Positions 25,812-64,000 of a stretch of DNA of 64,000 bases are shown one piece after another. Position numbers and translations under genes: made by a program. Origin of the DNA: Dehalococcoidia bacterium (GTDB lineage: Bacteria > Chloroflexota > Dehalococcoidia > Lucifugimonadales > UBA3495); the NCBI GenBank assembly GCA_965203855.1, contig CBDBDN010000005.1, forward strand, positions 321,804 through 385,803, written 5' to 3'. The notes under the pieces were generated by a model. It ran no database searches. It was given only the letters and a program-made list of their open reading frames with translations, and had not been told where the DNA came from. The stretch's first letter is position 1; every line of letters begins with the position of its first letter.

Positions 25812-26361
25812 GTTTGACGCCACCCAACTGGTACTCCGCCACGCCGGCGACAGCCCCATCGTCGGCAACCTCGGCCCCACCAGCGACGAGCTGTATCACG
25901 CCGGCCATCGCGACCGCAATTTCTACACCTATGGCAGTATGGGCCTCTGTTCGTCCATCGCCCTCGGCATGGCCTTGTCCACCAACGACAAGGTGATTTC
26001 GCTGGACGGCGACGGTTCCCTGCTGATGAACCTGGGCGCCATCGCCACCATTGGACGGGAAAACCCCGCCAACCTGGTAGTGGTCGTCTGGGACAACGAA
26101 GCCTGGGGGCAGACCGGCGGCCAGACCAGCCACACCGGAACCGGCACCGACCTGGCGGAAGTCGCCCGTTCCTGCGGCATCGGCAAAACGGCTACCGTCA
26201 ACGACCTGGAAACCCTGGAGGATATATTCGGGCGGGCCATGCGCGAGCCGGGTCCCTGGTTCATCGTCGCCAAAATTGAGGAAGCCCCGGAATATATGCC
26301 GGTAGCTCCGGTAGAGCCGGAGTTCACGCTGTACCGGTTCCGCAATACTTATACGGAATGA
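25804..26361 (+). CDS. comE: Sulfopyruvate decarboxylase beta-subunit-like (ThDP-binding PP domain)
   Basis: GSMGLCSSIALGMAL and the GDGSLLMNLGA...N ThDP motif. TTG start with an 8-nt overlap with the alpha subunit. Confidence 0.7.
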   Translation: MLRFDATQLVLRHAGDSPIVGNLGPTSDELYHAGHRDRNFYTYGSMGLCSSIALGMALSTNDKVISLDGDGSLLMNLGAIATIGRENPANLVVVVWDNEAWGQTGGQTSHTGTGTDLAEVARSCGIGKTATVNDLETLEDIFGRAMREPGPWFIVAKIEEAPEYMPVAPVEPEFTLYRFRNTYTE

Positions 26362-27089
26362 TTGGCGGGCGGCTGCCGGCCGGGTTCTCCTGCCGCATCG
26401 CCGCCGTTGCCGCTGCTATTGCCATTGCCATCGCCGCTGCCATTGTGGTTGTCGGCGGCGCGGTTGATCGCCAGCTCCGAAAGTTCCAGCACTTTGGCAG
26501 CGAGGACGGCGTTGCGCTCGCCCTCGGCCTTTAGTTGCGCCAGAAATTCCGACTGCATCGCCTGCATCACTTTCCGATCCTCTGCGCGTTCCTGCTCCTG
26601 CCGGGCGCGTTGCTGTTCTCGCTGGACGCGCTCTTCCTGACGCTCCTGCTCCTGCCGGGCGCGCTCCTGTTCTCGCTGGATGCGCTCTTCCTGACGCTCC
26701 TGCTCCTGCCGGGCGCGCTCCTGTTCTTGCCGGGCGCGTTCCTGTTCTCGCTGGACGCGCTCTTCCTGACGCTCCTGCTCCTGCCGGGCGCGCTCCTCTT
26801 GGCGTTCCTGTTCCCAACGCGCCTTGTCTTCCAGGCGCTCCTGCTGGCGGGCCTGCTCCGCCTCATGGTTCTTCATAAACTGCCAGAGGGACAAAATCAT
26901 CTCAAATCCTCCAACGAACCCTGACGCAGCAACCACAGCCGCCGTGTTGATTACCGCCGCCGTTACCGTGTCGGAGACCATCCGCGCATCCGTATTATAC
27001 GCCCAAAGCGTTACCAGCAGCGCCGCCGCTCCGCCAATTGCCGCAGCAATCGGGTAGATTATAACGATGGCAATGACAATCCGACTCAT
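26349..27089 (-). CDS. Membrane-anchored protein with a long (Q/R)EQER-repeat coiled coil
   Basis: Start at MSRIVIAIVII. Two TM helices, then ~130 aa of an E/R/Q periodic repeat and a Gly/Asn-rich tail. Confidence 0.55.
   Translation of the reverse strand: MSRIVIAIVIIYPIAAAIGGAAALLVTLWAYNTDARMVSDTVTAAVINTAAVVAASGFVGGFEMILSLWQFMKNHEAEQARQQERLEDKARWEQERQEERARQEQERQEERVQREQERARQEQERARQEQERQEERIQREQERARQEQERQEERVQREQQRARQEQERAEDRKVMQAMQSEFLAQLKAEGERNAVLAAKVLELSELAINRAADNHNGSGDGNGNSSGNGGDAAGEPGRQPPANHSV
26591..26800. repeat. In-frame 54-nt (18-aa) tandem repeat inside the coiled-coil gene
   Basis: The unit CCTGCTCCTGCCGGGCGCG..CTGTTCTCGCTGGA.GCGCTCTTCCTGACGCT occurs at 26591 and 26645. The copy at 26699 carries a 21-nt insertion, and a partial fourth copy follows. 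Confidence 0.85.
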
Positions 27090-27337
27090 CAGCTCCTTGC
27101 TCCCGCCCGCCGGCTGATGTAGCAATCCCGGCTGGCGCAGCGATTATAGCGGCAATACCCGCATTCCCGCCATCCGGCATAGAGATGCGAAACCCGCGCC
27201 TCAGCCGCGCCGGCCCATCCCGTTTGCGGCCGGCATCGGGTACTTCCTGCGTCGGCCCGGCGCAAACTGTACTGCCGGCGCTTCAGGCCCGTAGCAGCGC
27301 CGCAGATTTCTCCCCGAAAAATCCGGCAGCCGCTTGG

Positions 27338-29086
27338 TTAAGGCGCGGACGGCAGCGCAAACTCCGCTTCCCACAGTCGCGGCCCATCCGGTATGTACTG
27401 TCCAGTGTGAATCGCGGCAATAGAATACGGCGGCAGCTCCACTGTTGCGTTGCATTGTGCGCCAATCCGCCTGCCGTGTGTTGCAAAGGCAAAATCCAGG
27501 CCCTGATAGCCGTGCTGTTGTCGGTTAACTGATAAGTCTTCCGTTCTAATCGGGTAAATATGCAAAAAGAACAGAGCATCAACATCCGCTGCCGCGCAAT
27601 TCTCTTTGATATAGTACAGATTGCCGTCGCCCGCATAAATATCAAAATACGCGCGCGCCAGCGGTTCGCCTCCGGCAATCGGAGTATAAACGCCGGCTTC
27701 GCCGGAGGGCGCCATCGCAAACTCCGCTTCCCAAAGTCGCGGCCCGCCCCGTGTGTACTGGCCGGTGACTAGCAGCGTTATCGGGTGTCCCGGTAGCGCT
27801 ACGGACGCCGCGCACTTTCCGTCAGACAACAGGCCAACCCTTCTAAAATCAAAGTCCCGGTTCAGGAAGCCGTATTGTTGCCTACTGGCCGGCAAATCGC
27901 TTGGCTGCGCCGGGTAAATATGCAAAAAGAAGCTATCGGAAATATCCTCCGGAGAATAATTATCTTTGAAATAATATAGCCGGCCGTCTCTGCTGAAAAC
28001 ATTAAATACGGAACTGGATACTTGCTCAGCATCAGCAGCCGGCGTCGTGTAACTGGCCTCAAAGTACACCGACTGGTGCGTATCCGTAGTGAAATGCGCC
28101 AAAAGCGCCAGTCCGATGCCAACGGCAATTACCAGAACACATACCGCCGTGCCCAGCCGCTGCGGAGTAATCATTCCGGGCAATTTCAGGCCGCGACCCG
28201 GCCAATCCACTAATATGGCAAACCGCTTTTGCGACAGCAGTATCTCAACCGCATACCAGACGCTAATGATGCCAAGCAAATACTCGGTGAATTCCAGCGA
28301 GCGGTACGGGAAATACGCCGCCGCGTGGGCTTGCTGCATAGCATAAGCCTTGCCGCCAATGATTGCCGTGGCCGAAATTATCGCCGGCAGCAATTTGACG
28401 CGACCGCTGATTAGAGCATAACACGCCAGCAACGGCAGCAGCATAGTTATCTGGTTAAACAAAAAATACAAATATCTAGGCGACCAAACGTCATACTCAT
28501 ATGCGCTTGTTGCAATGATGCCCAGAATCATCAAAAACGAAGGCGCTGGAATACCCAGCAACCGATCCCGGCCGCAGAAAAATGCCGCAATCGCTATAAT
28601 ACACCAAATCAGGGCCGGTTGTGTGTAGAGTATATCGAACTGATCAGTGTATTTAGTACGAATGTTATGCAAATTCAATTCCTCTTGAATATTATTGTCC
28701 AGTAAATAATCCGGCGTCGCGAATCCAATAATTCGTTGCCCCCAGCTGATTTCTTCCCCGGCAACAAATACCAGCCCGATGCCGGCCAGAATGTACATAC
28801 TGCATACAAACTTACTCCCCCCCCCCCCCCGAGTCCGGCGGCGAGAAACAGCGTCGCTCCGGCTACCAAGAACCAAAACGCCGTAAGATATTCTACCCAG
28901 CTGTCCTCCAGCGCGAGCGCACTGTAAGTCGCCGGTTCGATGAGAGCTAGAACGCTAAAGCATAGAATATGTAAGCACACCACTCCGTAGCCGACCGCAG
29001 CAATACGGCCACCAAAACCGGCTGCGTCCCCCAGTAGATAGCTGAGATGCGGAGAACCCGTCGTCCGCCGCTGTCGGTGTAGCCAT
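27338..29086 (-). pseudogene. Polytopic membrane protein with two C-terminal copies of the shared module. The reading frame is broken at a C5/G5 run and a C14/G14 run.
   Basis: A strong RBS (AAGGAGGG) plus the ATG at 29086 are in frame with the long ORF 27338..28876. The ~200 nt between 29028-29032 and 28817-28830 is open only in another frame (ORF 28675..28983). That segment aligns with the N-terminus of the paralogue at 62840. Confidence 0.7.
28817..28830. repeat. 14-nt poly-C (poly-G on the coding strand) homopolymer inside a coding region
   Basis: Counted directly: cttact + 14 C + gagtcc. Confidence 0.95.
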
Positions 29087-29262
29087 CAGATTCCCTCCTT
29101 ATTCCCAAGCTCTTCCCCACCCGGCGCCGACATTATACAGCAACACGGCCCGGCGGCAATCAGCCAGCCCGTTTGCCACTGCCCGCCCGGTAGTCTATCA
29201 TTAGGGCGCGGGCGGCAGCCTCGGGCTGTCCCATTCGCGGCCCTCAGGAGATTACCAATTCT

Positions 29263-30327
29263 ATGACACCCGCCAACGTAGCCGATTCCGATATTGCCAT
29301 TGCCTCCGCTGCCCCCGGCGTTGCGAACACGCCGGCCGCCGGCGCATCCGCGCCCCTGCCCGACGGCCTCGCCGCTGCCGACCTGGTGGAAATCTGCCGC
29401 CAGCTGATCCTGGTGCGCGCCATGGACGAGCGCATCTGGATGATGAACCGGCAGGGCAAAGTGCCCATTGCCGCCTCCGCCCAAGGCCACGAAGCGGCGC
29501 AGCTCGGCTCCCTGCTGGCCGCCCGGCAGGATGGCAACTGCTTCCTGTTCCCCTACTACCGCGACCTGGCCATCAAAATGGCCGCCGGCCTCACGCCCCG
29601 CCAGGTAATGCTCTCCTTCATGGGCAAAGCCGGCGAACCCTACTCCGGCGCGCGCCAGTTCCCCTTGCAGGGCGCCGACCTCCCCCGCCGCATCATCCAA
29701 ATCTCCAATGTAGTAGCCGCCAGCCTGACCCAGAGCGTCGGCTACGCCCTCGGCTGCCAAATGCAGGGCGATGACACGGTAACCCTCTGCTACTTCGGCG
29801 ACGGCGCTACCAGCCAGGGCGAAACCCACGAAGCCATGAACTTCGCCGCCATTCACCGCCTCCCCATCGTCTTTATCTGCGAAAACAACAAATACGCCAT
29901 ATCCACCCCGCAAGACTTGCAGATGGTAGTTAGCGATGTCGCCGCGCGCGCCGAAGCCTACGGCTTCCCCGGCTTCGTAGTTGACGGAATGGATGTAATA
30001 GCCTGCTACGAGGCGGCCCGCCAAGGAATCGTCCACGCCCGCCGCGCCGGCCCGTCCCTGGTGGAAATGAAAGTAGAGCGCTTTATGCCTCACACTACCG
30101 ACGATGACGACCGCCGCTATCGCGACCGCGACGCCGTGGACGCGGCCCGCGCCCGCGACCCGGTAACCGCCTTCCCCGCCGACCTGCTGCGCCGCGGCAT
30201 CCTGTCCCAGCAGCAGATTGACCAGTTCCACGCCGACGCCCAGCAGCAAGTCAACGACGCCACCGACTTCGCCGACGCCGCCGCCCCGCCGGACGCCGCT
30301 ACGATTTACGACCATCTGTATGCGTAG
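29263..30327 (+). CDS. 2-oxo-acid dehydrogenase E1 alpha subunit (PDH/BCKDH type, ThDP-dependent)
   Basis: Matching segments are RAMDERIWMMNRQGK, YFGDGATSQGETHEAMNFAA and PIVFICENNKYAIS. Confidence 0.9.
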   Translation: MTPANVADSDIAIASAAPGVANTPAAGASAPLPDGLAAADLVEICRQLILVRAMDERIWMMNRQGKVPIAASAQGHEAAQLGSLLAARQDGNCFLFPYYRDLAIKMAAGLTPRQVMLSFMGKAGEPYSGARQFPLQGADLPRRIIQISNVVAASLTQSVGYALGCQMQGDDTVTLCYFGDGATSQGETHEAMNFAAIHRLPIVFICENNKYAISTPQDLQMVVSDVAARAEAYGFPGFVVDGMDVIACYEAARQGIVHARRAGPSLVEMKVERFMPHTTDDDDRRYRDRDAVDAARARDPVTAFPADLLRRGILSQQQIDQFHADAQQQVNDATDFADAAAPPDAATIYDHLYA

Positions 30328-33902: not shown

Positions 33903-34602
33903 CGCTGCGTCCAACGCCAATGCCAACGCCGCCGGCGCTCCCGGCGTCTGCCGCATCATCCGCGCCGGCATCGTACCCTACCGCCAGGCGTGGGACTGGC
34001 AGCTTGAAATTGCCGACCAGGTGCGGAACGGCGCCGCCCCCGAAACCCTCCTGCTGCTGGAACACCCCCCCACTTACACCCGCGGCCGCCTGGCCCCCGA
34101 CAGCCACCTCCTCCTGGACGCCGCCGCCCTGGCCGCGCGCGGCATCACTCTGGTAGAAACCGACCGCGGCGGCCTGATTACCTGGCACGGCCCCGGCCAG
34201 CTCGTAGCCTACCCCGTCATCCGGCTGCGCGGGCGCGGCGGTCCCCACTGGTATGTCCGCACTCTCGAGCAGGTAATCATCGCCGCCTTGTCCGATTTCG
34301 GAATGCCGGCGACTGCCGTTGCCGGATTGACCGGCGTCTGGACCGCCGACGGACGTCGCAAGATTGCCGCCATCGGCGTCAAAATCGCCGGCGGCATCGC
34401 CTATCACGGCTTTGCCGTCAACATTGACCCCGACTTGACGATGTACGACGGCATCATCCCCTGCGGCATCCCCGACCGGGGCGTAACCGCCCTGGCCGCC
34501 GAACTGCCCACGCCGCCGCCCCCAGACGCCGTAGCCAACGCCCTGTCCCATCATTTCTGCGCCGCCATCGGCCTGAAGCCTTTGTACCCGGATTTTTTGT
34601 AA
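33880..34602 (+). CDS. lipB: Octanoyltransferase (lipoyl(octanoyl) transferase)
   Basis: Matching segments are LLLEHPPTYTRG, ETDRGGLITWHGPGQLVAYP, KIAAIGVKI and PCGI. The only in-frame ATG overlaps the E2 end by 23 nt. Confidence 0.85.
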   Translation: MTLPPFTDAASNANANAAGAPGVCRIIRAGIVPYRQAWDWQLEIADQVRNGAAPETLLLLEHPPTYTRGRLAPDSHLLLDAAALAARGITLVETDRGGLITWHGPGQLVAYPVIRLRGRGGPHWYVRTLEQVIIAALSDFGMPATAVAGLTGVWTADGRRKIAAIGVKIAGGIAYHGFAVNIDPDLTMYDGIIPCGIPDRGVTALAAELPTPPPPDAVANALSHHFCAAIGLKPLYPDFL

Positions 34603-34661: not shown

Positions 34662-35942
34662 CTAGGGCGATGTCCCCATCTCGCAAACCTCCCGGTTGTG
34701 TTCCAGCCATTCCAGCAAGGCTTCCGCCGCCCACTGGTGGCCGGCGGGAGTCCAGTGAATATCGTTAGTCCAGACGGCTGCGGAGAGGTCTCCGCCCTGG
34801 CGGAGGATGTAATCGTGCAGGTTGATGACTGGAATGTTATGCGCGGCGGCAAGTCGGTTTAAGAGATTAAACCGGGGGTGCTGCCGACCGCCCATTGCGG
34901 TTTCGGAGAGGATAACCAGGGCGGCGCCGTCGCGTGCGGCGCGGGCCTGAAATTCGCCCAGCGCCAAGCCGGTAAGCGTAATGGCTTGCTGGTAGGCGGG
35001 GGCGGGATTGTCGGCGGCAATCTGATCATACAATGCCTGGTGGCCGGACAGCGCGGCGTCTGTTGGCTGCCAGCCGTCCAACAGGCCGGACGCATCATAA
35101 TGCTGGCGGTACAGTTCCAGGTACTGGCGGCGCTCCGGCACGATGTCCACTAGATACCTGCGATGCAGCTGTTTGAACTTGAGGTCCAGCCACCGCGCGA
35201 ACCAGGATACCCGGCCAGCTTGGTGAAGTTCCCGGCTAATCAGCGGCGGCGGCGTTGCCGGCGGCACATAAGCCGGATTATCCGGGTCAGGATTATGCCA
35301 TTGCAAAGTTCCGTCCGGGGCCAATTCCGCAGCCAGATACTCACCCTGCCCCGGCGGTTTCCGAGTATAGACCATGGTTAATAGAGGAGAATTGTCTTGC
35401 AGGTCGTTAGGGTAAAAGACCAAAACTACCAAATCGGGGTTCAGCCGGCGCGCAAACCGGTCGTAAAGCGGCAGCTGACCAAACTGGCCGCTGCCGTTAA
35501 GTCCGTATGCGGATACAGTAAGGGCGAGCTCCGGCAGTCTCTGCTCGGCCAACTGCGCCAGCTTTACCTGAATTTTGTCGGCAATGGGTACTTCTGTCGC
35601 TGCTACGAAAGAATCGCCGATGATGCTGATGTGGCAGCCCGCCGCCGCCCGCTCCGGGCTGACGGGTTCCCGATCCATAAAGCCCAGGCTGTTGGTGCGC
35701 TCGGTTACCCAGAAATCATCGTAGTTGGTCCAGCGCATTTCGGTGTCGGGCGCAAACAAACGGCCAATGCCGGGGACAAACACCGTCAGCAACTGCCGTT
35801 CCATAAAGGGCTTGGACAGTCGGAAATAGGCTTCTCCGGCAAGCCAAATCAAGGCCAAGCCCGCTAGAATGAGCAGCGCATTCCAGCTAATCAGCCTGGC
35901 AACCCGGTAGAGTCGGGGGGGGGGGATAGAATTTAGTCGCAT
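34662..35942 (-). CDS. Membrane-anchored SGNH/GDSL-type hydrolase (paralogue 1)
   Basis: N-terminal TM helix. SGNH blocks are IIGDSF, YGLNGSG, FYPNDL and a C-terminal DIHWTPAGH. A C11 run spans codons 6-9 (IPPPR). Confidence 0.72.
   Translation of the reverse strand: MRLNSIPPPRLYRVARLISWNALLILAGLALIWLAGEAYFRLSKPFMERQLLTVFVPGIGRLFAPDTEMRWTNYDDFWVTERTNSLGFMDREPVSPERAAAGCHISIIGDSFVAATEVPIADKIQVKLAQLAEQRLPELALTVSAYGLNGSGQFGQLPLYDRFARRLNPDLVVLVFYPNDLQDNSPLLTMVYTRKPPGQGEYLAAELAPDGTLQWHNPDPDNPAYVPPATPPPLISRELHQAGRVSWFARWLDLKFKQLHRRYLVDIVPERRQYLELYRQHYDASGLLDGWQPTDAALSGHQALYDQIAADNPAPAYQQAITLTGLALGEFQARAARDGAALVILSETAMGGRQHPRFNLLNRLAAAHNIPVINLHDYILRQGGDLSAAVWTNDIHWTPAGHQWAAEALLEWLEHNREVCEMGTSP
35915..35925. 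repeat. 11-nt poly-G (poly-C on the coding strand) tract in codons 6-9 of the SGNH gene
   Basis: Counted directly: agtc + 11 G + ataga. Confidence 0.95.
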
Positions 35943-36029: not shown

Positions 36030-37298
36030 TTAGCCATTCCGCTGGCAGACTTCCGGGTCTTGTTCCAGCCATTCCAGCAGGGCCTCCGCCGCCCACTGGT
36101 GGCCTTGGGGAGTCCAGTGGGAGTCGTGATTCCAGACGCCGGCGGCGAGGTCTCCGCCTTGGCGGCGAATGTAGTCGTGCTGGCTGATAACCGGAATGCC
36201 ACGTGCGGTGGCCAATCTACTTAATAGATTAAACTGGGCGTGGCCGCGGCCGCCCATTTGGATTTCGGAGAGTATCACCAGCGCGGCGCCGTCCCGTTCT
36301 GCGCGGGCCTGGAATTCGCCAAGGGCCAGGTCGGTAAGCGTAACGGCTTGCTGGTATGGGGGAGGAGGATTTGCGGCGGCAAGCTGGTCGCGCAGCGCCC
36401 GGAGTTTGGACAGCGCGGCAGTTTCGGGCTGCCAGCCGTCAAGCACGCCCGCATCATCATAGCGCTGGCGGTAGAGTTCCAGGCGCCGGCGCCGCTCCAC
36501 TACAATATCCTGTAGGTACTCTTTGTGCCACAATCGGTACTTGGCGCCCAGCCACTGCGCGAACCAGGATACCCGGCCGGCTCGGTAAAGCGCCCGGGTA
36601 AGCAAGGGATTTGGCCTTGCCGGGCTTGCGTAAGCCAGAAAATCCGGATCAGGCAAATGCCATTGCAAGGTTCCGTCTGGGCCCAGCGCCGCGGCTAGAT
36701 ACTGGTGCCGGCCCGGTACTATCCCATTATAGACCAGGTCCAGTAAAGGGGAATTATTTTCCAGGTCGTTAACGACAAATACCAGAATTACCAACTCGGG
36801 GTTCAGCCGGCGCGCATAGCGGTCGTAAAGTGGCAGCTGTCCGAACTGGCCGCTGCCGTCGAGGCCATAGGCTGATGCGGTAATGTCCAGTTCCGGCAGC
36901 CGCTGCGCCGCCAGCTGCGTCATCCGGGTCTGAAACTTGTCGGCAACAGGCACTTGCCGGGCGCCTACGAAAGAATCGCCGATGATGCTGATATGGCAGC
37001 TTGACGCCGCCCGCTCTGCGCTGACGGGTTCCCGGTCCAGAAAACCTAGGCTGTTGGTGCGCTCCGTTACCCAGAAATCCAGATAGTTGGTCCAGTTCAC
37101 TGCTGTGTTGGGCGCGTACATATAGCCCACGCCGGGGACAAACACATTCGGATACGACCGTTCCATATGGGGCTTGGTCAGGCGGAGCCAGCCTTCGCCG
37201 GCAATTCCAATCAGCGCCAAGCCGACGACAATCAGCAGCGCATTCCAGCCAATCAGTTTGGCGACCCGATAAAGTCGGGGCGGTAAAATCAGGCGCAT
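36030..37298 (-). CDS. Membrane-anchored SGNH/GDSL-type hydrolase (paralogue 2)
   Basis: Same block structure (IIGDSF, YGLDGSG, VNDL, DSHWTPQGH). ATG at 37298 (MRLILPPRLYRV) matches the paralogue's start. Confidence 0.72.
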   Translation of the reverse strand: MRLILPPRLYRVAKLIGWNALLIVVGLALIGIAGEGWLRLTKPHMERSYPNVFVPGVGYMYAPNTAVNWTNYLDFWVTERTNSLGFLDREPVSAERAASSCHISIIGDSFVGARQVPVADKFQTRMTQLAAQRLPELDITASAYGLDGSGQFGQLPLYDRYARRLNPELVILVFVVNDLENNSPLLDLVYNGIVPGRHQYLAAALGPDGTLQWHLPDPDFLAYASPARPNPLLTRALYRAGRVSWFAQWLGAKYRLWHKEYLQDIVVERRRRLELYRQRYDDAGVLDGWQPETAALSKLRALRDQLAAANPPPPYQQAVTLTDLALGEFQARAERDGAALVILSEIQMGGRGHAQFNLLSRLATARGIPVISQHDYIRRQGGDLAAGVWNHDSHWTPQGHQWAAEALLEWLEQDPEVCQRNG

Positions 37299-37380
37299 AG
37301 ATTGGAGCCACAACGATAGCGGATGTGTTGGCGTTCAGCAGATGAAATCAGCGGGACAGGGCCTGCGATGTTGAGGTCCG

Positions 37381-40300
37381 CTACTGTACCATAAACTCCT
37401 TTTCCCACAGCCTATACTGCCCGGTGGCGATTTTATGGATGGGATAATCCGGCAGCAGCGCCGTGGCAATGCACTGCCGGCCCAGCCGCGTCCCGTTGTC
37501 CTCAAACGCAAAATCCCGGTTTTCAAATTCAACGCCGTTCTCACGGGCCTGTCGCGGCAAGTCGTCCCCGTCCACCGGATACACGTGCAACAAGAACCCC
37601 GCCTCGGTTGCGGACGCCGCGCACAAGATCTCAATGTAATACACCCGGCCCGCCTTGTGGTACACATCAAAATCGCCCCGCGCCGCCGGCTGCTCCATTG
37701 CCAAATACTCCAGCATTGCCGCGCCTAGCCATCCTTCCGACTCCCACAGCCGCGTCCGGCCATCCGAATCCACCTGCCCCGTGCGGACGCCAATCACCGT
37801 GTACCCCGGCAATGGCACGGCTGCCAGGCAGTTCCCGTCAAACTCCCCGCCGCCTTCCAGGTCAAACTCAAAGGCCAGGTTTTCATACCCGTGTGCGCGC
37901 CGCCCCTCGTCCAGGTCATTCACATCGGCCGGTATCAGATGCAGAAAGAATGTCGCCGCCGTATCCCCCGCCGCGCAACCCTCTCTGGCATAAATCAATT
38001 CCCCGCCGACTTGATATAGGTCAAAAAAGTCCTCCGCTATGGGTTCCAACCCGGCCAGCGTAGCATACTTGTCGCGCAGCGCCGGCACATCGGCCGCCGA
38101 CGCCGTTGACGCCGTAGCCGCCGGCTGTAGCAGCGTCGGCACATCCGGCGTCGCCGCCGTTCCAACGCCTTGCGCTGCGTCATCCCCCGGCAGCGTCGTC
38201 GCCGTCCAAAGCCGATCCTGGCCGGGGATATATTGCCCGGTGCGGATGCCCGCCAGCGGGTAGTCGGGCAAAGGCGCGCTGAACAGGCATTTCCCGTCAA
38301 TTCGCACGCTGCCCGTCCGCTCAAACCCGAAATCCCGGTTCTCGTATCCATACTCTTGCCGGCCGGCCGGCAAGTCATTCACATCATCAGGAAACAGATG
38401 CAGAAAGAAAGGCGCCGCCGTATCCGCATCAGCGCATTCCGCCCGCGCGTAAATCACCGCATTACCGCTGCGGTAAATGTCAAAAAAGCCTTCCGCTATC
38501 GGTGCCCCCGCCGTCAGCGACGCATACCGGGCCCGCTGGGCGTCAAAATAAGCGTCGGTGTAAATCTCCCCTTCCCACAGCCGGTCGTCGCCAGTAATGT
38601 ATTGCCCGGTTCGTATCACCCCCACCGCATAATCGGGCAGCGGAACGGACGCCAGGCATTTGCCGTCAAACCGCCCGCCCGCTTGGCTGAACACAAAATC
38701 CCGGTTCTGAAACCCCAATTCCCGCCGGCCGTCCGGCAAATCGGCGCTGTCCACCGGTATCAGATGCAGGAAAAAGGGCGCCGCAGTGTCGTCAATGGCG
38801 CAAGATTCCCGAATGTACACCACCGCATCATCCTGGACATACACCTCAAAATCAGTGCGGAGCGCCGGCGTCCCGGCAACTGCATAGTCATACTTGCTCC
38901 GGTACAGCGTCGCGTTCACTTGCCAATGCCTTAGCTCATCAGACTGCCCGGTGCTGATATTGCCGATACTGTAATCCGGCAGGGGCGCAAACGCCAGGCA
39001 CTGCTCGCCAAAAATCGCCCCCCGTTCCTCAAATCGGAAATCCCGGAATTCCAGCCCATCAGCGCGTATCCCGGCCGGCAGCCGGCTCCGGTCGTTAGGC
39101 GTGATATGCAGGTAAAACGGCGTTGCCGTATCCTCCGCAGCGCACGATTCCCGCAGATAAGACACCGTCCGCGCGCCCACATAAACATCAAACGCCCCGT
39201 CTCTGCCGTCAATCTCGGCCCCGGTCGCCACATCGTGGGCCACATACCGGCGATAAAAGTCGGCGTTGCCAACGCCCGCCGCGTCAAACCCGAAACCCAC
39301 GCCGTACCCCAGCAGCGCCGTCGGTTCCAGCCCCGGCGTCGTCAGCAGCCCGGCAGTCCCGTAATCTGTGCCGCCGCCATCCGTCGCTGCCGCGCATCCC
39401 CGGTCGCCCCGGCCCGGCAGCCAGGCAATAGATACGGGGCCGGCGGCGCTTTCTACCGCCAGCGCCGCCCGCAATTCCGACAAATCGCAGGGCAGACGGC
39501 GCAGCTCCCCCGGAGTTTCTTGCGGAGTTTCCTGCGGCCTGTTCTGATGAATATACGCCGCCGCCAGGTTGTTGGTGAACACGGCCCCGCCGTCCGCCGC
39601 CGCCCGCTCCAGGTAATCCGGCAACGGCGAATCGACCCACCCCGCCCCGGCGTATCCCAGCTCGGCATCGCTGCCCTGATTGGCCGCCGCTACCGCGCGC
39701 CCGTTGGACACCGCCAGCAATGCCAGCCAGATGCCCAGCGCCGCCGCCAGTACCGCCAGCGGCAGCGGCATCGCCCCATTGCCGGCCCGCCCCTGTTCCT
39801 GCCGCCGCGCCAGAAACAGATCGGCGGCCAGCAGCCCCAGGAACAGCAGCGGCAAATAGACCGGCGCCAGCTGCCGCGCCTGGAATCCGGCCCCGCCGGC
39901 ATCGCCGAGCGCCAGCGTCGTCAATAGCGCAATGAAATACAACAGCGCAAACCCGCCGAATACATAGCCGGGACGCGGCCCTTCCGCATCGTAATAGCCG
40001 CCCTCCGACCGGCCGCCATAGTCATAAGCGATTGCGAACACGCACAGCAGGATTGCCGCCAGCAGCCCCAGCGCGCCCAGCGCAATCACTGCCGCGCCTA
40101 ATCCCAGCTGCGCCAGGCTGATGCCCGGCAAGTCGGGAATAACCCAGCCGAACAGGGCCGCGGGTATGCCGGCCAGCGCATCGCGGAACGAACCGGATGC
40201 GACCCCGCCGCTGGTGTCCGTTTCGCCGCCGGACAGCAGTCTCCATAGCAGCCACAGCACCAGCGGAACTACCCCAATCAGCGCATAAATGCCGATGCGT

Positions 40301-40950
40301 TTCACTTTATCCAACGCCGCCGTCCCGCCCTGCAACGCCAGCAGTATTATCACCGTCGCCAGTACTGCCAGCCCCATATAGTTCGTCAGGCCGGCCAGCG
40401 CGGTGAACCCCGCCGCCCACAGCAAAGCGGAGATTTTGCCCCCGCTCAGGAACCGTTCCGTATGGATCAATGCCAAAGTCGCCCAGAGGACAAACGCCGT
40501 TTCCGGCAATGCCCACGCCGCCGCTCCCGCCAGCGGTATGGACAGCATTACCGCCAAGCATCCCGCCGCCGCCAGCAAGCCGGACTGCAAACGCGTCCGC
40601 AGGTAGATCCCGGCCGCCGCTATCGTTGCGGCGAATAGCACGGCATTGAGCGGGCCGGCAACGCTGTGCGGGTCCAACACTCCCCACAGACTTGCCGCCG
40701 CCAGCATCAGCGGATACAGCGGCGGGAACGACGCATAAGGCAAGCCGCTGTATCCCGTGAACCCGTTGCCGGCCAGCAGGCTGCGCGCCGCGGCGATATG
40801 CTCCACGGCATCCCATTCCAGCCCTATGCCGTAGCCCAAGCCGCGCGCCAGAACCAGCGCGCCGCCCACCACGGCAGCAACGGCCAGCAGCGCGGCGTAC
40901 CAGTCCAACCGGAATCCGCCGCCGCCCTCATATTCCACCCGATTTACCAT
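37381..40950 (-). CDS. Giant GT-C/ArnT-PMT-like polytopic membrane protein with five C-terminal copies of the shared module
   Basis: The N-terminal ~560 aa is multi-TM, with AAARSLLAGNGFTGYSGLPYASFPPLYPLMLA. The C-terminal ~600 aa is five ~115-aa repeats with the pattern FD.Y...Y..E.C...DT...FFLH..P.D..DLP..R..G..NRDF.F.....G.C.....LPDY.....RTGQY....RLWE.E. Confidence 0.75.
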   Translation of the reverse strand: MVNRVEYEGGGGFRLDWYAALLAVAAVVGGALVLARGLGYGIGLEWDAVEHIAAARSLLAGNGFTGYSGLPYASFPPLYPLMLAAASLWGVLDPHSVAGPLNAVLFAATIAAAGIYLRTRLQSGLLAAAGCLAVMLSIPLAGAAAWALPETAFVLWATLALIHTERFLSGGKISALLWAAGFTALAGLTNYMGLAVLATVIILLALQGGTAALDKVKRIGIYALIGVVPLVLWLLWRLLSGGETDTSGGVASGSFRDALAGIPAALFGWVIPDLPGISLAQLGLGAAVIALGALGLLAAILLCVFAIAYDYGGRSEGGYYDAEGPRPGYVFGGFALLYFIALLTTLALGDAGGAGFQARQLAPVYLPLLFLGLLAADLFLARRQEQGRAGNGAMPLPLAVLAAALGIWLALLAVSNGRAVAAANQGSDAELGYAGAGWVDSPLPDYLERAAADGGAVFTNNLAAAYIHQNRPQETPQETPGELRRLPCDLSELRAALAVESAAGPVSIAWLPGRGDRGCAAATDGGGTDYGTAGLLTTPGLEPTALLGYGVGFGFDAAGVGNADFYRRYVAHDVATGAEIDGRDGAFDVYVGARTVSYLRESCAAEDTATPFYLHITPNDRSRLPAGIRADGLEFRDFRFEERGAIFGEQCLAFAPLPDYSIGNISTGQSDELRHWQVNATLYRSKYDYAVAGTPALRTDFEVYVQDDAVVYIRESCAIDDTAAPFFLHLIPVDSADLPDGRRELGFQNRDFVFSQAGGRFDGKCLASVPLPDYAVGVIRTGQYITGDDRLWEGEIYTDAYFDAQRARYASLTAGAPIAEGFFDIYRSGNAVIYARAECADADTAAPFFLHLFPDDVNDLPAGRQEYGYENRDFGFERTGSVRIDGKCLFSAPLPDYPLAGIRTGQYIPGQDRLWTATTLPGDDAAQGVGTAATPDVPTLLQPAATASTASAADVPALRDKYATLAGLEPIAEDFFDLYQVGGELIYAREGCAAGDTAATFFLHLIPADVNDLDEGRRAHGYENLAFEFDLEGGGEFDGNCLAAVPLPGYTVIGVRTGQVDSDGRTRLWESEGWLGAAMLEYLAMEQPAARGDFDVYHKAGRVYYIEILCAASATEAGFLLHVYPVDGDDLPRQARENGVEFENRDFAFEDNGTRLGRQCIATALLPDYPIHKIATGQYRLWEKEFMVQ

Positions 40951-56590: not shown

Positions 56591-57171
56591 TTACTGGCAC
56601 CACATCATATTGGCCCAGCGGATGTACTGCCCGCCTCTGGCCGGAACGGCCGCTACCACCGCACTCAGGAGCCGGTAGCGGGTTGTGCCAACCTGTACAA
56701 AATCAGAGTTGGGAGTGGTGTCTCCGGGACTCCAGGGCGTATCAGCAAATCTGACAAATTGCCCGGTGTTGGGAGCAAGGTAATAATTGTTGGGGCTGGT
56801 TCTGTGAAAGACCCGGCCCATTGCGAGTACGTATGTGTGGGGCGTCGTAAGAGTGCTCCGTGCGTAACCTTGCTGCCTGGTAAGACTTAAATCAACCTCA
56901 TAGCGGGCGGGTATGGCATCTATGGCCGCGACATAACCGCTGCGTTCCAGCACAATCAGCCAGCCGCTGTCGCTGTTGCCGCAGTTATACGCCGCCTGTC
57001 CGTCGCGGACATTGTAGTAACGGGGCTGCTGCCCGTATTCCTGGCAAACCCGCTGCGTGTAAGTGTAGCCGCCTAGGCTGGTAGCTTTATCGGGGGGGGC
57101 AGAATTCCGATGGCGATGACGGCGGCGAAAATGCCGATGCCGGCCGCGGCTACTGCAATTTTACTCAACAT
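56591..57171 (-). pseudogene. Signal-anchored secreted or surface protein, frame broken at a C8/G8 run
   Basis: AGGAGGA plus the ATG at 57171 gives MLSKIAVAAAGIGIFAAVIAIGILPPP and stops 6 codons after the run (57092-57099). With 9 C the frame runs on into ORF 56591..56953. Confidence 0.6.
57092..57099. repeat. 8-nt poly-G (poly-C on the coding strand) tract
   Basis: Counted directly: tatc + 8 G + cagaatt. Confidence 0.95.
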
Positions 57172-60696: not shown

Positions 60697-60999
60697 ATGT
60701 ATGAAATCCTGCGTACACCGGAATTTGACGAATGGCTGAACGCCCTTGCCCCGGCGGCGACGGTTCGGGTTTCCCGGGCGTTGTCGCGTATGGTTGAAGG
60801 TAATTGGGGCGATTACAAACCCCTAGCCGGCACCCAGGGCATTTTTGAACGGCGTCTGATAGGCAGAGGGCCGGGCATACGGCTGTACTTTTGCCGGCAA
60901 GGCAATCGCATCATAATAATACTGGCGGGCGGTGGTAAATCTACGCAGGAGCGCAGGGACATCAACCGAGCCCGCCTGATTCGTGAACGTTATCTATGA
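60697..60999 (+). CDS. RelE/ParE-superfamily addiction-module killer protein (HigB-like)
   Basis: 100 aa. The pattern F..WL..L......+v......L..G..GD.K.l......E.R......G.R.YF......IIILL.GG.K..Q..DI..A fits TPEFDEWL...GIRLYFCRQGNRIIIILAGGGKSTQERRDINRA. Confidence 0.8.
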   Translation: MYEILRTPEFDEWLNALAPAATVRVSRALSRMVEGNWGDYKPLAGTQGIFERRLIGRGPGIRLYFCRQGNRIIIILAGGGKSTQERRDINRARLIRERYL

Positions 61000-61012
61000 T
61001 GGAGACGGAACA

Positions 61013-61216
61013 ATGACGCTTACCAGACATGATGATGCTACCCGCGCGCGAGTGCAAAGGGATCCGGAATTCGCTCGCCTCTGGCGTGAGGCGGCGATTG
61101 AGCTTTTGGACGGCGATGATGTGGACCGGCGCGTTGCGAGGCGTATATTGAGCGATCATTTCGGCATGACGGATGATGAAATCAACGCCTTGCCGGTCAA
61201 AGAGGCCGCCGCGTGA
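61013..61216 (+). CDS. Short antitoxin-like protein lacking an obvious HTH
   Basis: DPEFARLWREAAIELLDGDD resembles the N-terminal part of HigA-type antidote proteins. The protein ends after ~67 aa. Confidence 0.45.
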   Translation: MTLTRHDDATRARVQRDPEFARLWREAAIELLDGDDVDRRVARRILSDHFGMTDDEINALPVKEAAA

Positions 61217-61389: not shown

Positions 61390-61410
61390 ATGCGGAACGG
61401 GGAGTACCTT

Positions 61411-61614
61411 ATGCAGTTGACCCGACACGATGACTACGCTAGAGACCGGGCGGCACGTGACCCGGAATTCGCACGATTGCGGTATCAAACAGCGATTGAA
61501 CTACTTGACGGCAACGATGAGGACCGCCGCATCGCCTTGAGGATACTCCGCGACCAGCTCGGCTTGCCTAACGATGCAATCCGGGAACTGCAACGCAAAG
61601 AGGCGACGGCATGA
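61411..61614 (+). CDS. Short antitoxin-like protein, paralogue of 61013..61216
   Basis: MQLTRHDDYARDRAARDPEFARLRYQTAIELLDGNDEDRR. Its stop overlaps the ATG of the next gene (ATGA). Confidence 0.45.
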   Translation: MQLTRHDDYARDRAARDPEFARLRYQTAIELLDGNDEDRRIALRILRDQLGLPNDAIRELQRKEATA

Positions 61615-62839: not shown

Positions 62840-64000
62840 ATGATGCGGTTCTTGCGGTCGCGGACGACAGGAGGGTCGGAGGCGGCGGAAAAATTGGACG
62901 CAGACCACGGCCTGACTGCGCTTCCTCTGCCGGCTATGAAACCGGATTGGTATGGCAACGCTGTTGCCATTGCCGGATACGGCTTGCTGTGCCTGCAAGT
63001 TATATTTTTCATTGCGCTGGCCCTTACCGAACCGTATGCGTACCGGGCGCTGGCGAGAGAGACCACCGCAGTGGAAATCTTTACGGCGGTATGGTATGGA
63101 TGCGGCGGCTTGCTCTTGATCGTTGTCGCCATTAGGGAAAAAGTGGTATTGACGCGCAGCATATACGCTCTGGGCGCCGTTGTGATGATATTTATTGCCG
63201 GCGAGGAAATCAACTATGGTCAATTTTTTTTGAAATTTCCGACGCCGGATTTTCTGGCTAATACTAATGATCTGGGTCAATTCAATGTTCACAATATCTA
63301 TGGCGACCATCGGAATTTGACTGCTCCTATTTTCCGAAACTGCCGGCTGGTATTGTGCATTGTAGCTATTGTTGCGCTTTTTCTCGGCAAAGAACGGCTG
63401 CTCGGCATTCCTTTGCCTTCAATGCCGTTGATACTGGGCATTATTGTAGCGGAATCATACGTGCATTTTTCCAACTGGATCAATACAGGGGATTTTCTTT
63501 TCGAGTCAACCAATATACTGCTGGTGGTTATAGCAGTTTATGCTATAATCACCAAACAGGTCAAGGCGCTCCCGACTTGCCTTTCTGTTATCGCCATTGT
63601 CATTGCAACAGCTTATGCTATGACTTTCATTCGCATAGGCAGCATTCCAGGGCACAAGCATCTTGAATTCCAGGAATATCTATACGCATTTGTTGCTTTG
63701 TGGTATGCCATTGAGCTGTGGCTGGGGCAGAGGCGGCTGTCCACATTTTCGGCAGTCCCAATAAAGGGCCTGCGGACGGCCGCAGCAATCAGCCGTCGCT
63801 GGGCTGGGCCGGTGGTATGCGTTTTGACGATTGCCGCCAGCGTCGGGTTGGCCCTGTTCGTGTATTTCGGCATTGAGCGTAACGACAGCTATTTTGATAG
63901 GCTCTATTATCAAGCAGTCGACGGTTTGAAGCCGATCGAACGCGCGACTTTTGATATTTACATCGAAAAGGGTAATCTGTATTACATTAAAGAGGGTTGC
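62840..64000 (+). CDS. Polytopic membrane protein, paralogue of 27338..29086, 3' end off the window edge
   Basis: I translated 387 codons without a stop, which is why it is absent from the ORF track. IFIAGEEINYGQFFLKFPTPDFL matches VFVAGEEISWGQRIIGFATPDYL. The last codons (FDIYIEKGNLYYIKEGC) begin the shared module. GC is lower than in the flanks. Confidence 0.65.
   Translation, partial: MMRFLRSRTTGGSEAAEKLDADHGLTALPLPAMKPDWYGNAVAIAGYGLLCLQVIFFIALALTEPYAYRALARETTAVEIFTAVWYGCGGLLLIVVAIREKVVLTRSIYALGAVVMIFIAGEEINYGQFFLKFPTPDFLANTNDLGQFNVHNIYGDHRNLTAPIFRNCRLVLCIVAIVALFLGKERLLGIPLPSMPLILGIIVAESYVHFSNWINTGDFLFESTNILLVVIAVYAIITKQVKALPTCLSVIAIVIATAYAMTFIRIGSIPGHKHLEFQEYLYAFVALWYAIELWLGQRRLSTFSAVPIKGLRTAAAISRRWAGPVVCVLTIAASVGLALFVYFGIERNDSYFDRLYYQAVDGLKPIERATFDIYIEKGNLYYIKEGC

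What the first reader, a model, noticed from the sequence alone, without database searches (positions are those of the whole stretch)
28817..29032. A G14 tract and a G5 tract bracket an out-of-frame segment of an envelope gene: phase-variable switch or homopolymer miscalls
Seen in sequence. The strong RBS and the ATG at 29086 are in the same frame as the long ORF 27338..28876. The ~200 nt between the C5 run (29028-29032) and the C14 run (28817-28830) is open only in a different frame. That segment encodes the conserved first TM region, which aligns with the paralogue at 62840. One G fewer at the first run and one G more at the second would restore a single ~580-aa ORF.

Established: long G/C homopolymers in 5' coding regions are classic slipped-strand phase-variation switches for surface structures in several bacteria. 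A 14-nt G run is very improbable by chance even at this GC content.

Caveat: homopolymer length is also the main error mode of long-read assemblies.
Basis: partly seen in the sequence, partly recalled or inferred. Interest (0 to 1): 0.7.

Follow-up and report, generated by a model that had tools for sequence, protein, structure and literature searches.

The report
Slippery poly-G tract breaks membrane-protein gene
A run of 14 G's knocks an uncharacterised membrane-protein gene of an uncultured Dehalococcoidia bacterium out of frame, and related samples carry other tract lengths at the same spot, so it looks like a real slippage-prone on/off site, but this copy also has a second, unrelated frameshift and is probably dead.

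Summary
The upstream frame change, however, is not at the G5. Eight intact or near-intact relatives show it is one extra T in a T-run (29017..29014); the G5 is in frame and conserved.

The G14 sits in a Gly-rich loop between the second and third predicted membrane helices of a 582-aa multi-pass membrane protein. That protein ends in two beta-sandwich repeats and matches no Pfam, NCBIfam or PDB family. At this site relatives carry G9 (in frame), G-A-G7 with 2 nt fewer than the in-frame G9 allele (out of frame), or interrupted GGAGGAGGG-type codons (in frame).

Two other genes for membrane-anchored or exported proteins in the window carry 5' poly-C tracts that also differ in length and frame between samples. 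One is an SGNH/GDSL gene (C11 here, C13 in a relative). The other belongs to a small exported-protein family (C8 here, C7 in a relative).

In 1.18 Mb from 80 other Dehalococcoidia there is no G/C run of 9 or more.

Verdict: a genuine hypermutable tract of the contingency-locus kind, in a lineage rich in such tracts. This copy is doubly disrupted. Without reads, a miscall of the exact G14 length cannot be excluded, and reversibility is untested.

The parts
27338..29086 (-). Gene A. It encodes a 582-aa multi-pass membrane protein with two C-terminal beta-sandwich repeats and is disrupted here by two frameshifts.
   Evidence: ORFs and frames. The reconstruction (remove one T, add one G) gives a 582-aa protein that is 85% identical to P0002 and 63% identical to full-length P0003. 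The AlphaFold2 model of P0003 has pLDDT 84.6, about 9 predicted membrane helices and two beta domains.
29093..29100 (-). Shine-Dalgarno-like AAGGAGGG, 6 nt upstream of ATG 29086..29084.
   Evidence: The AAGGAG core, the spacing and the N-terminus MATPTAADDGFSASQ are conserved, with minor changes, across the 8 relatives.
29028..29032 (-). It is in frame and is not the shift site.
   Evidence: The same TGGGGGACGCAGCCGG is in frame in the intact relative L002. The ATG frame matches the relatives through GGRSRF.
29014..29017 (-). T4 run carrying one extra T. This is the real upstream frameshift.
   Evidence: All 8 relatives read CGG TTT GGC GGC. blastn reports a 1-nt insertion in the window at 29014-29017 against every comparator.
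28831..29013 (-). Segment encoding the first two predicted membrane helices. It is readable only in the frame shifted by one base.
   Evidence: It aligns with the paralogue at 62840 and with the relatives.
28955..28957 (-). TAG that ends translation from ATG 29086 after 43 codons.
28817..28830 (-). G14 tract in the Gly-rich loop between the second and third predicted membrane helices. G12 or G15 would be in frame.
   Evidence: Relatives at this site carry G9 in frame (L002), G-A-G7 two nt shorter than G9 and out of frame (L001/L010), GGAGGAGGG (L008/L011), G8 (L009b) or other interrupted forms.
27338..28816 (-). Remainder of gene A, which has no further stop. The beta-sandwich repeats lie at about 28054..27713 and 27700..27341.
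   Evidence: The window has two repeats where L010, L002 and L011 have one.
62840..64000 (+). Intact paralogue of gene A with no tract at the equivalent site (AIREKVVLTRS). It runs off the end of the window.
34662..35942 (-). Membrane-anchored SGNH/GDSL-type gene with a C11 tract (35925..35915) in codons 6-10, in frame here.
   Evidence: The relative in L010 has C13, out of frame, and its called gene is cut to 398 aa. L011 has C6-T-C5. The paralogue at 36030..37313 has no tract.
56591..57171 (-). Gene C, a small exported protein. A C8 tract (57099..57092) separates the signal anchor from the mature domain, and the two parts are out of frame.
   Evidence: Relatives carry C7 out of frame (L174), or C3-G-C7 plus a 2-nt deletion upstream (L173). 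The family has many copies on the same 1.47 Mb contig.

Best explanation
The G14 is a real slipped-strand hot spot inside the coding sequence of an uncharacterised envelope membrane protein. It arose from three Gly codons in the short, probably cytoplasmic loop between the second and third predicted membrane helices. In some lineages these codons became a pure G run (G9) and then expanded.

Lengths divisible by three (9, 12, 15) keep the gene on and only vary the number of loop glycines. Any other length truncates the protein after the second membrane helix. At 14 the gene is off.

This copy also carries an independent 1-nt T insertion 184 nt upstream. Tract slippage alone therefore cannot switch it back on. 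It is best read as a recently inactivated copy of a contingency-type gene.

Shown here:
- the tract, the frames and the position of the T insertion;
- length and frame differences at this site among relatives;
- similar behaviour at two other tract-bearing genes;
- rarity of such tracts in other Dehalococcoidia;
- dN/dS well below 1.

Inferred, not shown:
- high-frequency reversible switching within a population;
- any adaptive value of switching;
- the topology of the loop;
- that 14 is the true length.
For: - The tract is real and non-random.
- It uses the minor Gly codon GGG exclusively; GGG is 20% of Gly codons nearby.
- Alleles at the same site are G14 off, G9 on, G-A-G7 (2 nt shorter than G9) off, and interrupted forms on.
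- A second paralogue in L011 runs AGACTC-G22-T-G31 into a contig end at the same position.
- The SGNH/GDSL gene has C11 on here and C13 off in L010.
- In the gene C family all three close alleles examined at DNA level are off (C8 here, C7 in L174, C3-G-C7 in L173); paralogue products range from 3-7 Pro in frame to one (P0164, same contig) read in the alternative frame of the anchor.
- There are 3 G/C runs of 8 or more in this 64-kb window, against 3 runs of exactly 8 and none longer in 1.18 Mb from 80 related genomes of the same G+C content.
- dN/dS is 0.30-0.41 for all allele pairs, including pairs of off alleles.
- The remaining 512 codons have no further stop and the ribosome-binding site is conserved.
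- Flanking genes aligned to L010, L011 and L172 show coding indels only in multiples of three at 93-95% identity, and long ORFs cover the window. The assembly is therefore not generally indel-ridden.
- 5' homopolymer tracts as on/off devices are established (PMC2831843, PMC3315296).
Against: - No reads are available, so neither within-population heterogeneity nor the true length is known.
- The sequencing platform of the window's assembly is unknown. Many related public genomes are megabase-scale single contigs or whole chromosomes, which suggests long-read data (an inference from size and record names), and there homopolymer length is the main error.
- Only four close alleles of gene A could be retrieved.
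- Most relatives have interrupted, stable codons at the site, so the tract is not a conserved feature of the family.
- The T insertion means this copy cannot act as a switch.
- In-frame C8-C10 runs in the housekeeping genes for E1-alpha and LplA of relatives arose by substitution. This suggests a neutral, lineage-wide tendency to build G/C runs rather than selection for switches.
- Other family members in other genomes are truncated at unrelated positions.
Confidence: 0.55

Rival explanations
1. Assembly artefact. The gene is intact in the organism (T3 and G15 or G12), and both frameshifts are consensus errors of a long-read metagenome assembly.
For: - G14 needs only one more G, and long G/C homopolymers are the main residual error of long-read assemblies (established knowledge).
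- The window's contig is 1.47 Mb, and its nearest public relatives are megabase-scale contigs or chromosomes.
- The two lesions cancel in length (+1 and -1).
Against: - T3 to T4 is not an error-prone context.
- About 20 kb of flanking genes show no other frameshift against three relatives, and the window has no other broken long ORFs apart from gene C.
- A T8 inside the paralogue and a C11 in the SGNH/GDSL gene are in frame.
- Relatives from scaffold-named ENA metagenome assemblies, probably short-read, are out of frame at the same tract with only 7 G's, and at a C7 in gene C. Such lengths are not error-prone on short reads.
Confidence: 0.12
2. Ordinary pseudogene. One redundant copy of a multi-copy family is decaying, and the G tract is merely the mutational weak point that broke first. 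There is no switching role and no selection for the tract.
For: - There are two independent disabling lesions.
- The closest relative, L010, is also broken at the tract.
- Copy number varies between genomes: one copy beside the E1-alpha gene in the window and L010, a partial second copy downstream in L011, three in tandem in L172.
- A paralogue is present at 62840.
- Other family members end in frame-shifted tails at unrelated positions.
- Most relatives lack a pure tract.
- G/C runs also arise by substitution in housekeeping genes of this lineage.
Against: - dN/dS of 0.30-0.41 shows no relaxation, even between the two off alleles.
- There are no stops in the remaining 512 codons, and the ribosome-binding site and start are intact.
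- The same tract-associated frame variation recurs in two unrelated genes for membrane-anchored or exported proteins, always near the 5' end.
- The tract expanded from 9 to 14, rather than simply being lost.
Confidence: 0.25
3. Recoding. The frameshifts are bypassed during expression, by RNA-polymerase slippage on the G14 and a +1 ribosomal slip at UUU-U, so that full-length protein is still made.
For: - A 14-nt homopolymer exceeds the length of the RNA-DNA hybrid in the transcribing polymerase, so transcript slippage is physically possible (established knowledge).
- UUU U allows the Phe-tRNA to re-pair in the +1 frame (from the sequence).
Against: - All intact relatives are in frame at both sites, so nothing is conserved as a shift signal.
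- Off alleles in relatives need different corrections: 2 nt short in L010, 1 nt short in the window.
- There is no slow codon or properly spaced stimulator at the T4 site.
Confidence: 0.03

Closest known systems
Poly-G/C contingency genes of Campylobacter jejuni, Haemophilus influenzae and Neisseria (for example capsule, lipooligosaccharide and glycosylation genes switched by intragenic G/C tracts). Named from my own knowledge.
   Same: - An intragenic G/C homopolymer of 8 nt or more in the 5' part of a gene for an envelope component.
- Only tract lengths that keep the reading frame give protein.
- Several such loci occur per genome.
- Tract length differs between strains.
   Different: - The host is an uncultured Dehalococcoidia (Chloroflexota), where three full-text searches found no report of phase variation.
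- There is no read-level or culture evidence of reversibility.
- The tract lies 86 codons into the gene, in a loop between membrane helices.
- This copy has a second, non-tract lesion.
- The protein family is uncharacterised.
Neisseria pilC (poly-G in the signal-peptide coding region) and opa (CTCTT repeats in the signal peptide). Named from my own knowledge.
   Same: Gene C and its paralogues place a poly-C tract exactly between the signal anchor and the mature domain of a multi-copy exported-protein family. Alleles are in or out of frame with the anchor.
   Different: This resemblance applies to the neighbouring gene C family, not to gene A itself. There is no functional information. All three close alleles examined are out of frame.
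Listeria monocytogenes inlA 5' poly(A) tract, and the general 5' homopolymer-tract model (Orsi et al. 2010, PMC2831843; Lin and Kussell 2012, PMC3315296).
   Same: A hypermutable tract near the 5' end gives efficient gene inactivation that is reversible in principle. Inactivation has arisen independently in related lineages.
   Different: The overrepresentation and 5' bias reported in PMC2831843 concern poly(A) and poly(T) tracts. Here the tracts are G/C runs in a 61% G+C genome, and they are much longer (11-14 nt).
Homopolymer-length errors of long-read assemblies.
   Same: A single-base length offset in a very long G run produces an apparent frameshift.
   Different: - The T4 lesion is not explained.
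- Flanking genes are clean.
- Relatives have out-of-frame alleles at runs of only 7 nt.

Membership tests
Simple-sequence-repeat (homopolymer) phase-variable contingency locus | A homopolymer long enough to be unstable (about 8 nt or more of G/C) inside the coding region or promoter. | tested here: met
   G14 at 28830..28817 lies within codons 86-90 of gene A.
Simple-sequence-repeat (homopolymer) phase-variable contingency locus | Changes in tract length toggle the reading frame between a full-length and a truncated product. | tested here: met
   G12 or G15 joins the frame encoding the first two membrane helices to the 512-codon downstream frame. G14 does not.
Simple-sequence-repeat (homopolymer) phase-variable contingency locus | Tract length is polymorphic at the same site among closely related strains, with both on and off alleles. 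| tested here: met
   G14 off, G9 on, G-A-G7 (2 nt shorter than G9) off, GGAGGAGGG on. Only four close alleles were available.
Simple-sequence-repeat (homopolymer) phase-variable contingency locus | High-frequency, reversible length heterogeneity within one population. | not testable with these tools
   No reads or cultures are available. The window's own record could not be retrieved.
Simple-sequence-repeat (homopolymer) phase-variable contingency locus | The gene is otherwise intact and maintained by selection, so that switching back restores function. | tested here: not met
   dN/dS is 0.30-0.41 and 512 codons have no further stop. But this copy has an extra T at 29017..29014, so tract slippage alone cannot restore it. 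The criterion is met for the relative L002 and fails for this copy.
Simple-sequence-repeat (homopolymer) phase-variable contingency locus | The product is a surface or envelope component. | tested here: inconclusive
   - About 9 predicted membrane helices and two beta-sandwich domains are predicted.
- The same C-terminal domain occurs on PMT_2-type glycosyltransferases.
- There is no Pfam, NCBIfam or PDB match for the protein itself.
Long-read homopolymer assembly artefact | Frameshifts are confined to long homopolymers and recur across the assembly. | tested here: not met
   One lesion lies in a T3/T4 run. There is no other frameshift in about 20 kb of aligned flanks. T8 and C11 runs are in frame. 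Gene C (C8) is the only other case.
Long-read homopolymer assembly artefact | Reads disagree with the consensus length. | not testable with these tools
   No reads are available.
Decaying pseudogene | Multiple disabling lesions. | tested here: met
   A T insertion plus a non-3n tract length.
Decaying pseudogene | Relaxed selection, with dN/dS approaching 1 and accumulated stops. | tested here: not met
   dN/dS between the window and L010 is 0.395, against 0.30-0.33 for on/on pairs. There are no internal stops downstream.
Programmed frameshift or transcriptional slippage site | The shift site and the out-of-frame arrangement are conserved in orthologues. | tested here: not met
   Seven of 8 relatives are in frame at the tract, and all 8 are in frame at the T-run site.

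The most novel reading that the evidence does not exclude
This uncultured, probably sponge-associated Dehalococcoidia lineage carries a genome-wide set of poly-G/C contingency loci. The loci sit in a multi-copy family of small exported proteins, with the tract between the signal anchor and the mature domain, and in genes for membrane-anchored proteins such as gene A and the SGNH/GDSL gene.

This would be the first repeat-based phase-variation repertoire described in Chloroflexota, and in an animal-associated symbiont outside the classic pathogens. It would plausibly serve to vary the cell surface seen by host cells or phages.
Probability: 0.35. Interest if true: 0.7.

Novelty: new member of a known kind. 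Interest (0 to 1): 0.45.

Why it matters
Repeat-mediated phase variation is known almost entirely from cultured pathogens and commensals. A set of long G/C tracts at the 5' ends of envelope and exported-protein genes, with frames differing between samples, would extend the strategy to Chloroflexota. It would also point to surface variation in the interaction of an uncultured, probably sponge-associated bacterium with its host or its phages.

In practice it flags which 'broken' genes in such metagenome-assembled genomes should not be auto-corrected or discarded as pseudogenes.

Tried and rejected
1. The relatives showed the residues were wrong, so I rejected this in favour of removing one T.

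2. Finding the window's own record to learn the platform or sample failed. Exact-product look-ups of P0001, E1-alpha and P0164 returned nothing. A 23-mer scan of genome contigs gave only chance hits in unrelated genomes.

3. A scan of JGI metagenome contigs with a 31-nt conserved anchor gave 0 hits.

4. I fetched 80 related genomes around the E1-alpha gene hoping for syntenic copies of gene A. None has gene A there. They served only as a background for tract frequency.

5. A search with the N-terminal 146 aa, meant to collect more truncated alleles, returned only the L010 fragment, truncated paralogues and a stand-alone N-terminal-domain family.

6. Function could not be assigned. Pfam, NCBIfam, a PDB sequence profile and Foldseek against PDB gave nothing convincing for gene A. 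Only weak Ig-like hits to the C-terminal repeats appeared.

7. A GC3-based scan for other frameshifts was not discriminating. I replaced it with blastn indel counting against relatives and an ORF-coverage check.

8. Literature searches for phase variation in Chloroflexi, Dehalococcoidia or sponge symbionts found nothing relevant.

Full report
**What is in the sequence**

Read on the minus strand, the region carries these features:
- a strong Shine-Dalgarno-like AAGGAGGG at 29100..29093;
- an ATG at 29086;
- a G5 at 29032..29028;
- a T4 at 29017..29014;
- a G14 at 28830..28817;
- a 512-codon open frame running down to 27338.

The ATG frame ends at TAG 28957..28955 after 43 codons. A second frame is open from 29087 to 28675. 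The ATG frame is open again from 28876 to 27338.

G14 is not a chance event. None of 100 dinucleotide-preserving shuffles contains one. For G11 the shuffle mean is 0.14 matching positions, against 5 observed from two separate runs. In real sequence, runs die out by length 7 apart from three outliers of 8, 11 and 14. GGG is the minor Gly codon, 20% of Gly codons in neighbouring genes against 66% for GGC.

**Where the frame really changes**

A search with the reconstructed protein found close relatives in ENA metagenome assemblies:
- P0002: 85% identity, 460 aa;
- P0003: 63% identity, 575 aa, full coverage;
- P0004 to P0009.

All of these start MATPTA..D.GFSASQ....(G)RSRFGGRIAAVGYG. In the window the ATG frame reads ...STGGRSRF and then diverges, and the shifted frame picks up GGRIAAVGYG. 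The frame change is therefore after the G5.

A nine-sequence DNA alignment shows that every relative has CGG TTT GGC GGC where the window has CGG TTTT GGT GGC. blastn reports a 1-nt insertion in the window at 29014-29017 against each comparator. The G5 context, TGGGGGACGCAGCCGG, is identical and in frame in the intact relative L002.

The correct repair is T4 to T3 plus G14 to G15 (or G12). This gives a 582-aa protein.

**The tract in relatives**

At the G14 position the relatives read as follows:

| Locus | Sequence after ACTC (ATTC in L009b, L172c; ACTG in L172a) | State |
|---|---|---|
| window | G14 AGTAAG | out of frame |
| L002 | G9 AGTAAG | in frame |
| L001/L010 | G-A-G7 TAAG | 2 nt short of L002's G9; called as separate 88-aa and 364-aa ORFs |
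| L008/L011 | GGAGGAGGG AGTAAG | in frame |
| L009a, L172b | GGAGAGGGGGAGGGG | in frame |
| L009b | GGGCGTGGGGGGGGC (a G8) | in frame |
| L172a, L172c | interrupted | in frame |

L001/L010 is the closest relative, with flanking genes 93-95% identical. A partial second paralogue at the end of L011 has AGACTC followed by G22-T-G31 running into the contig end. This fits either a long tract that breaks short-read assembly or poly-G read artefacts seeded on a real tract.

The ancestral state therefore looks like three Gly codons in a loop. In a few lineages these became a pure G run, and the run then changed length.

**Is the assembly generally error-prone?**

Aligned at 85-96% identity to L010, L011 and L172, the flanking genes show no other frame-breaking indel. 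In the well-aligned (93-96%) blocks, coding gaps are multiples of three and single-base gaps fall between genes. In more divergent blocks, single-base gaps occur only as nearby offsetting pairs, which are alignment noise. The exceptions are gene A and the SGNH/GDSL tract.

Gene lengths match those called in L010. Long ORFs cover almost the whole window. A T8 inside the paralogue and the C11 of the SGNH/GDSL gene are in frame.

The T insertion is thus very unlikely to be a consensus error. The exact G14 length could still be one. The platform is unknown because the window's own record could not be retrieved.

**Selection**

The pair of off alleles (window against L010) gives 0.395. On/on pairs give 0.30-0.33. 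Inactivation is therefore recent relative to the divergence of these alleles, and it happened independently in the window and in L010.

**What the protein is**

There is no Pfam or NCBIfam match, and a profile search of PDB sequences found nothing.

An AlphaFold2 model of P0003 (pLDDT 84.6) shows about nine predicted membrane helices followed by two beta-sandwich domains. Foldseek gave only weak Ig-like matches to the beta-sandwich domains.

Invariant residues include the two Glu residues and the Gln of the GEEISWGQ motif at the end of the third helix. The tract codes for the short, basic loop between the second and third helices. That this loop faces the cytoplasm is my inference from the positive-inside rule.

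The C-terminal repeat also occurs on PMT_2-type glycosyltransferases and in the neighbouring 1189-aa protein. An envelope role is therefore plausible but not shown.

Copy number and repeat number vary between genomes:
- one copy beside the E1-alpha gene in the window and L010, plus a partial second copy downstream in L011, and a distant paralogue at 62840 in the window;
- three tandem copies in L172;
- one or two C-terminal repeats per copy.

**Context: other tracts**

The window's other long runs also lie at the 5' ends of genes for membrane-anchored or exported proteins.
- *SGNH/GDSL gene.* C11 at 35925..35915 occupies codons 6-10 of this membrane-anchored gene and is in frame here. L010 has C13, out of frame, and its called gene is cut to 398 aa. 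L011 has C6-T-C5. The adjacent paralogue has no tract.
- *Gene C.* C8 at 57099..57092 separates a signal anchor from the mature domain of a small exported protein, and the two parts are out of frame. L174 has C7, also out of frame. L173 has C3-G-C7 plus a 2-nt deletion upstream, so the anchor alone is out of frame. Paralogues show between 3 and 7 Pro in frame, or the alternative-frame translation of the anchor. One of the latter (P0164) is on the window's own contig.

By contrast, 1.18 Mb from 80 related Dehalococcoidia genomes at the same G+C content contains three G/C runs of 8 and none longer. In relatives of the window's clade, in-frame C8-C10 runs in the E1-alpha and LplA genes arose by substitution. 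A neutral tendency to build G/C runs in this lineage is therefore also possible.

**Organism**

E1-beta and E1-alpha are 80-92% identical to the best-matching Dehalococcoidia, SAR202 and Chloroflexota genomes assembled from metagenomes. Several of these have isolate names that I recognise as coming from sponge studies. The sponge origin of the ENA samples is my own recollection and is unverified (one search did not retrieve the source paper).

**Interpretation**

The best reading is a genuine slipped-strand hot spot of the contingency-locus kind. It is off in this genome, and an unrelated T insertion makes this copy unrecoverable by slippage alone.

The rivals are:
- pure assembly error, which the T4 lesion, the clean flanks and the relatives' off alleles at 7-nt runs make unlikely;
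- an ordinary decaying pseudogene, which is plausible for this copy but fits poorly with dN/dS and with the recurrence of the pattern at other genes;
- recoding, for which nothing is conserved.

Homopolymer tracts near 5' ends as on/off devices are well established (PMC2831843, PMC3315296). Three full-text searches found no report for Chloroflexota or sponge symbionts. I therefore class this as a new member of a known kind, of moderate interest, pending read-level evidence.

Noticed in passing
window 35915..35925 (gene 34662..35942, minus strand); L010 2712..2724; L011 about 3060: The membrane-anchored SGNH/GDSL-type gene has a poly-C tract in codons 6-10. It is C11 and in frame in the window, C13 and out of frame in L010 (called gene cut to 398 aa), and C6-T-C5 in L011. 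The adjacent paralogue at 36030..37313 has no tract.
   Followed up: yes
window 56591..57171 (minus strand), C8 at 57092..57099; L173, L174: A small exported-protein gene is split at a C8 that lies between its signal anchor and its mature domain. Relatives have C7 or C3-G-C7 and are also out of frame with the anchor. The family (GGYTYTQRVCQEYGQQPR...WCR) has at least six further members on the same 1.47 Mb contig. Some of these have 6-7 Pro at this spot.
   Followed up: partly
L011 11880..11971 (contig end): A second gene A paralogue reaches its tract position (AGACTC) and then runs G22-T-G31 into the end of the contig. This is either a very long real tract that broke the assembly, or poly-G read artefacts attached to a real tract.
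   Followed up: no
window as a whole, against L092-L171: The window has G/C runs of 8, 11 and 14 within 64 kb. Across 1.18 Mb from 80 related Dehalococcoidia genomes of the same G+C content there are three runs of 8 and none longer. Long tracts therefore look specific to this lineage.
   Followed up: partly
L011 8771 and 4472; L172 5946; window 30275..30290 and 34525..34540: In relatives, the C-terminal AAPPPD of E1-alpha and a PPPP in LplA are encoded by in-frame C8-C10 runs. The window has GCCGCCCCGCCG-type codons at the same positions. These runs arose by substitution, not slippage.
   Followed up: partly
L172 7171..12420; L009; window 27338..29086: The gene A locus varies in copy number. 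There is one copy between the E1-alpha gene and the 258-aa ORF in the window and L010, and three tandem copies in L172. The number of C-terminal beta-sandwich repeats also varies, one or two per copy.
   Followed up: partly
window 26349..27125 (minus strand): A 258-aa ORF has two N-terminal hydrophobic helices and a long, highly charged EQERQEER / QEQERARQ repeat. Against relatives it differs by in-frame indels of 3, 12 and 18 nt.
   Followed up: no
window 37381..40950 (minus strand); L010 1..2545; L011 1..2901: A 1189-aa protein with no convincing family match (only a sub-threshold Pfam hit) contains several copies of the same beta-sandwich repeat as the C-terminus of gene A. The repeat is also fused to PMT_2-type glycosyltransferases in other genomes.
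   Followed up: partly
proteins P0126-P0129 (other genomes): Several more distant members of the gene A family are called as 170-230-aa products on megabase-scale contigs. Two end in what look like frame-shifted tails, at positions unrelated to the tract.
   Followed up: no
window 60983..61216 and 61390..61614 (+ strand): There are two similar small ORFs of 74-77 aa (LTRHDD...DPEFARL...ELLDG.D.DRR). They look like a duplicated small regulator or antitoxin-like gene.
   Followed up: no
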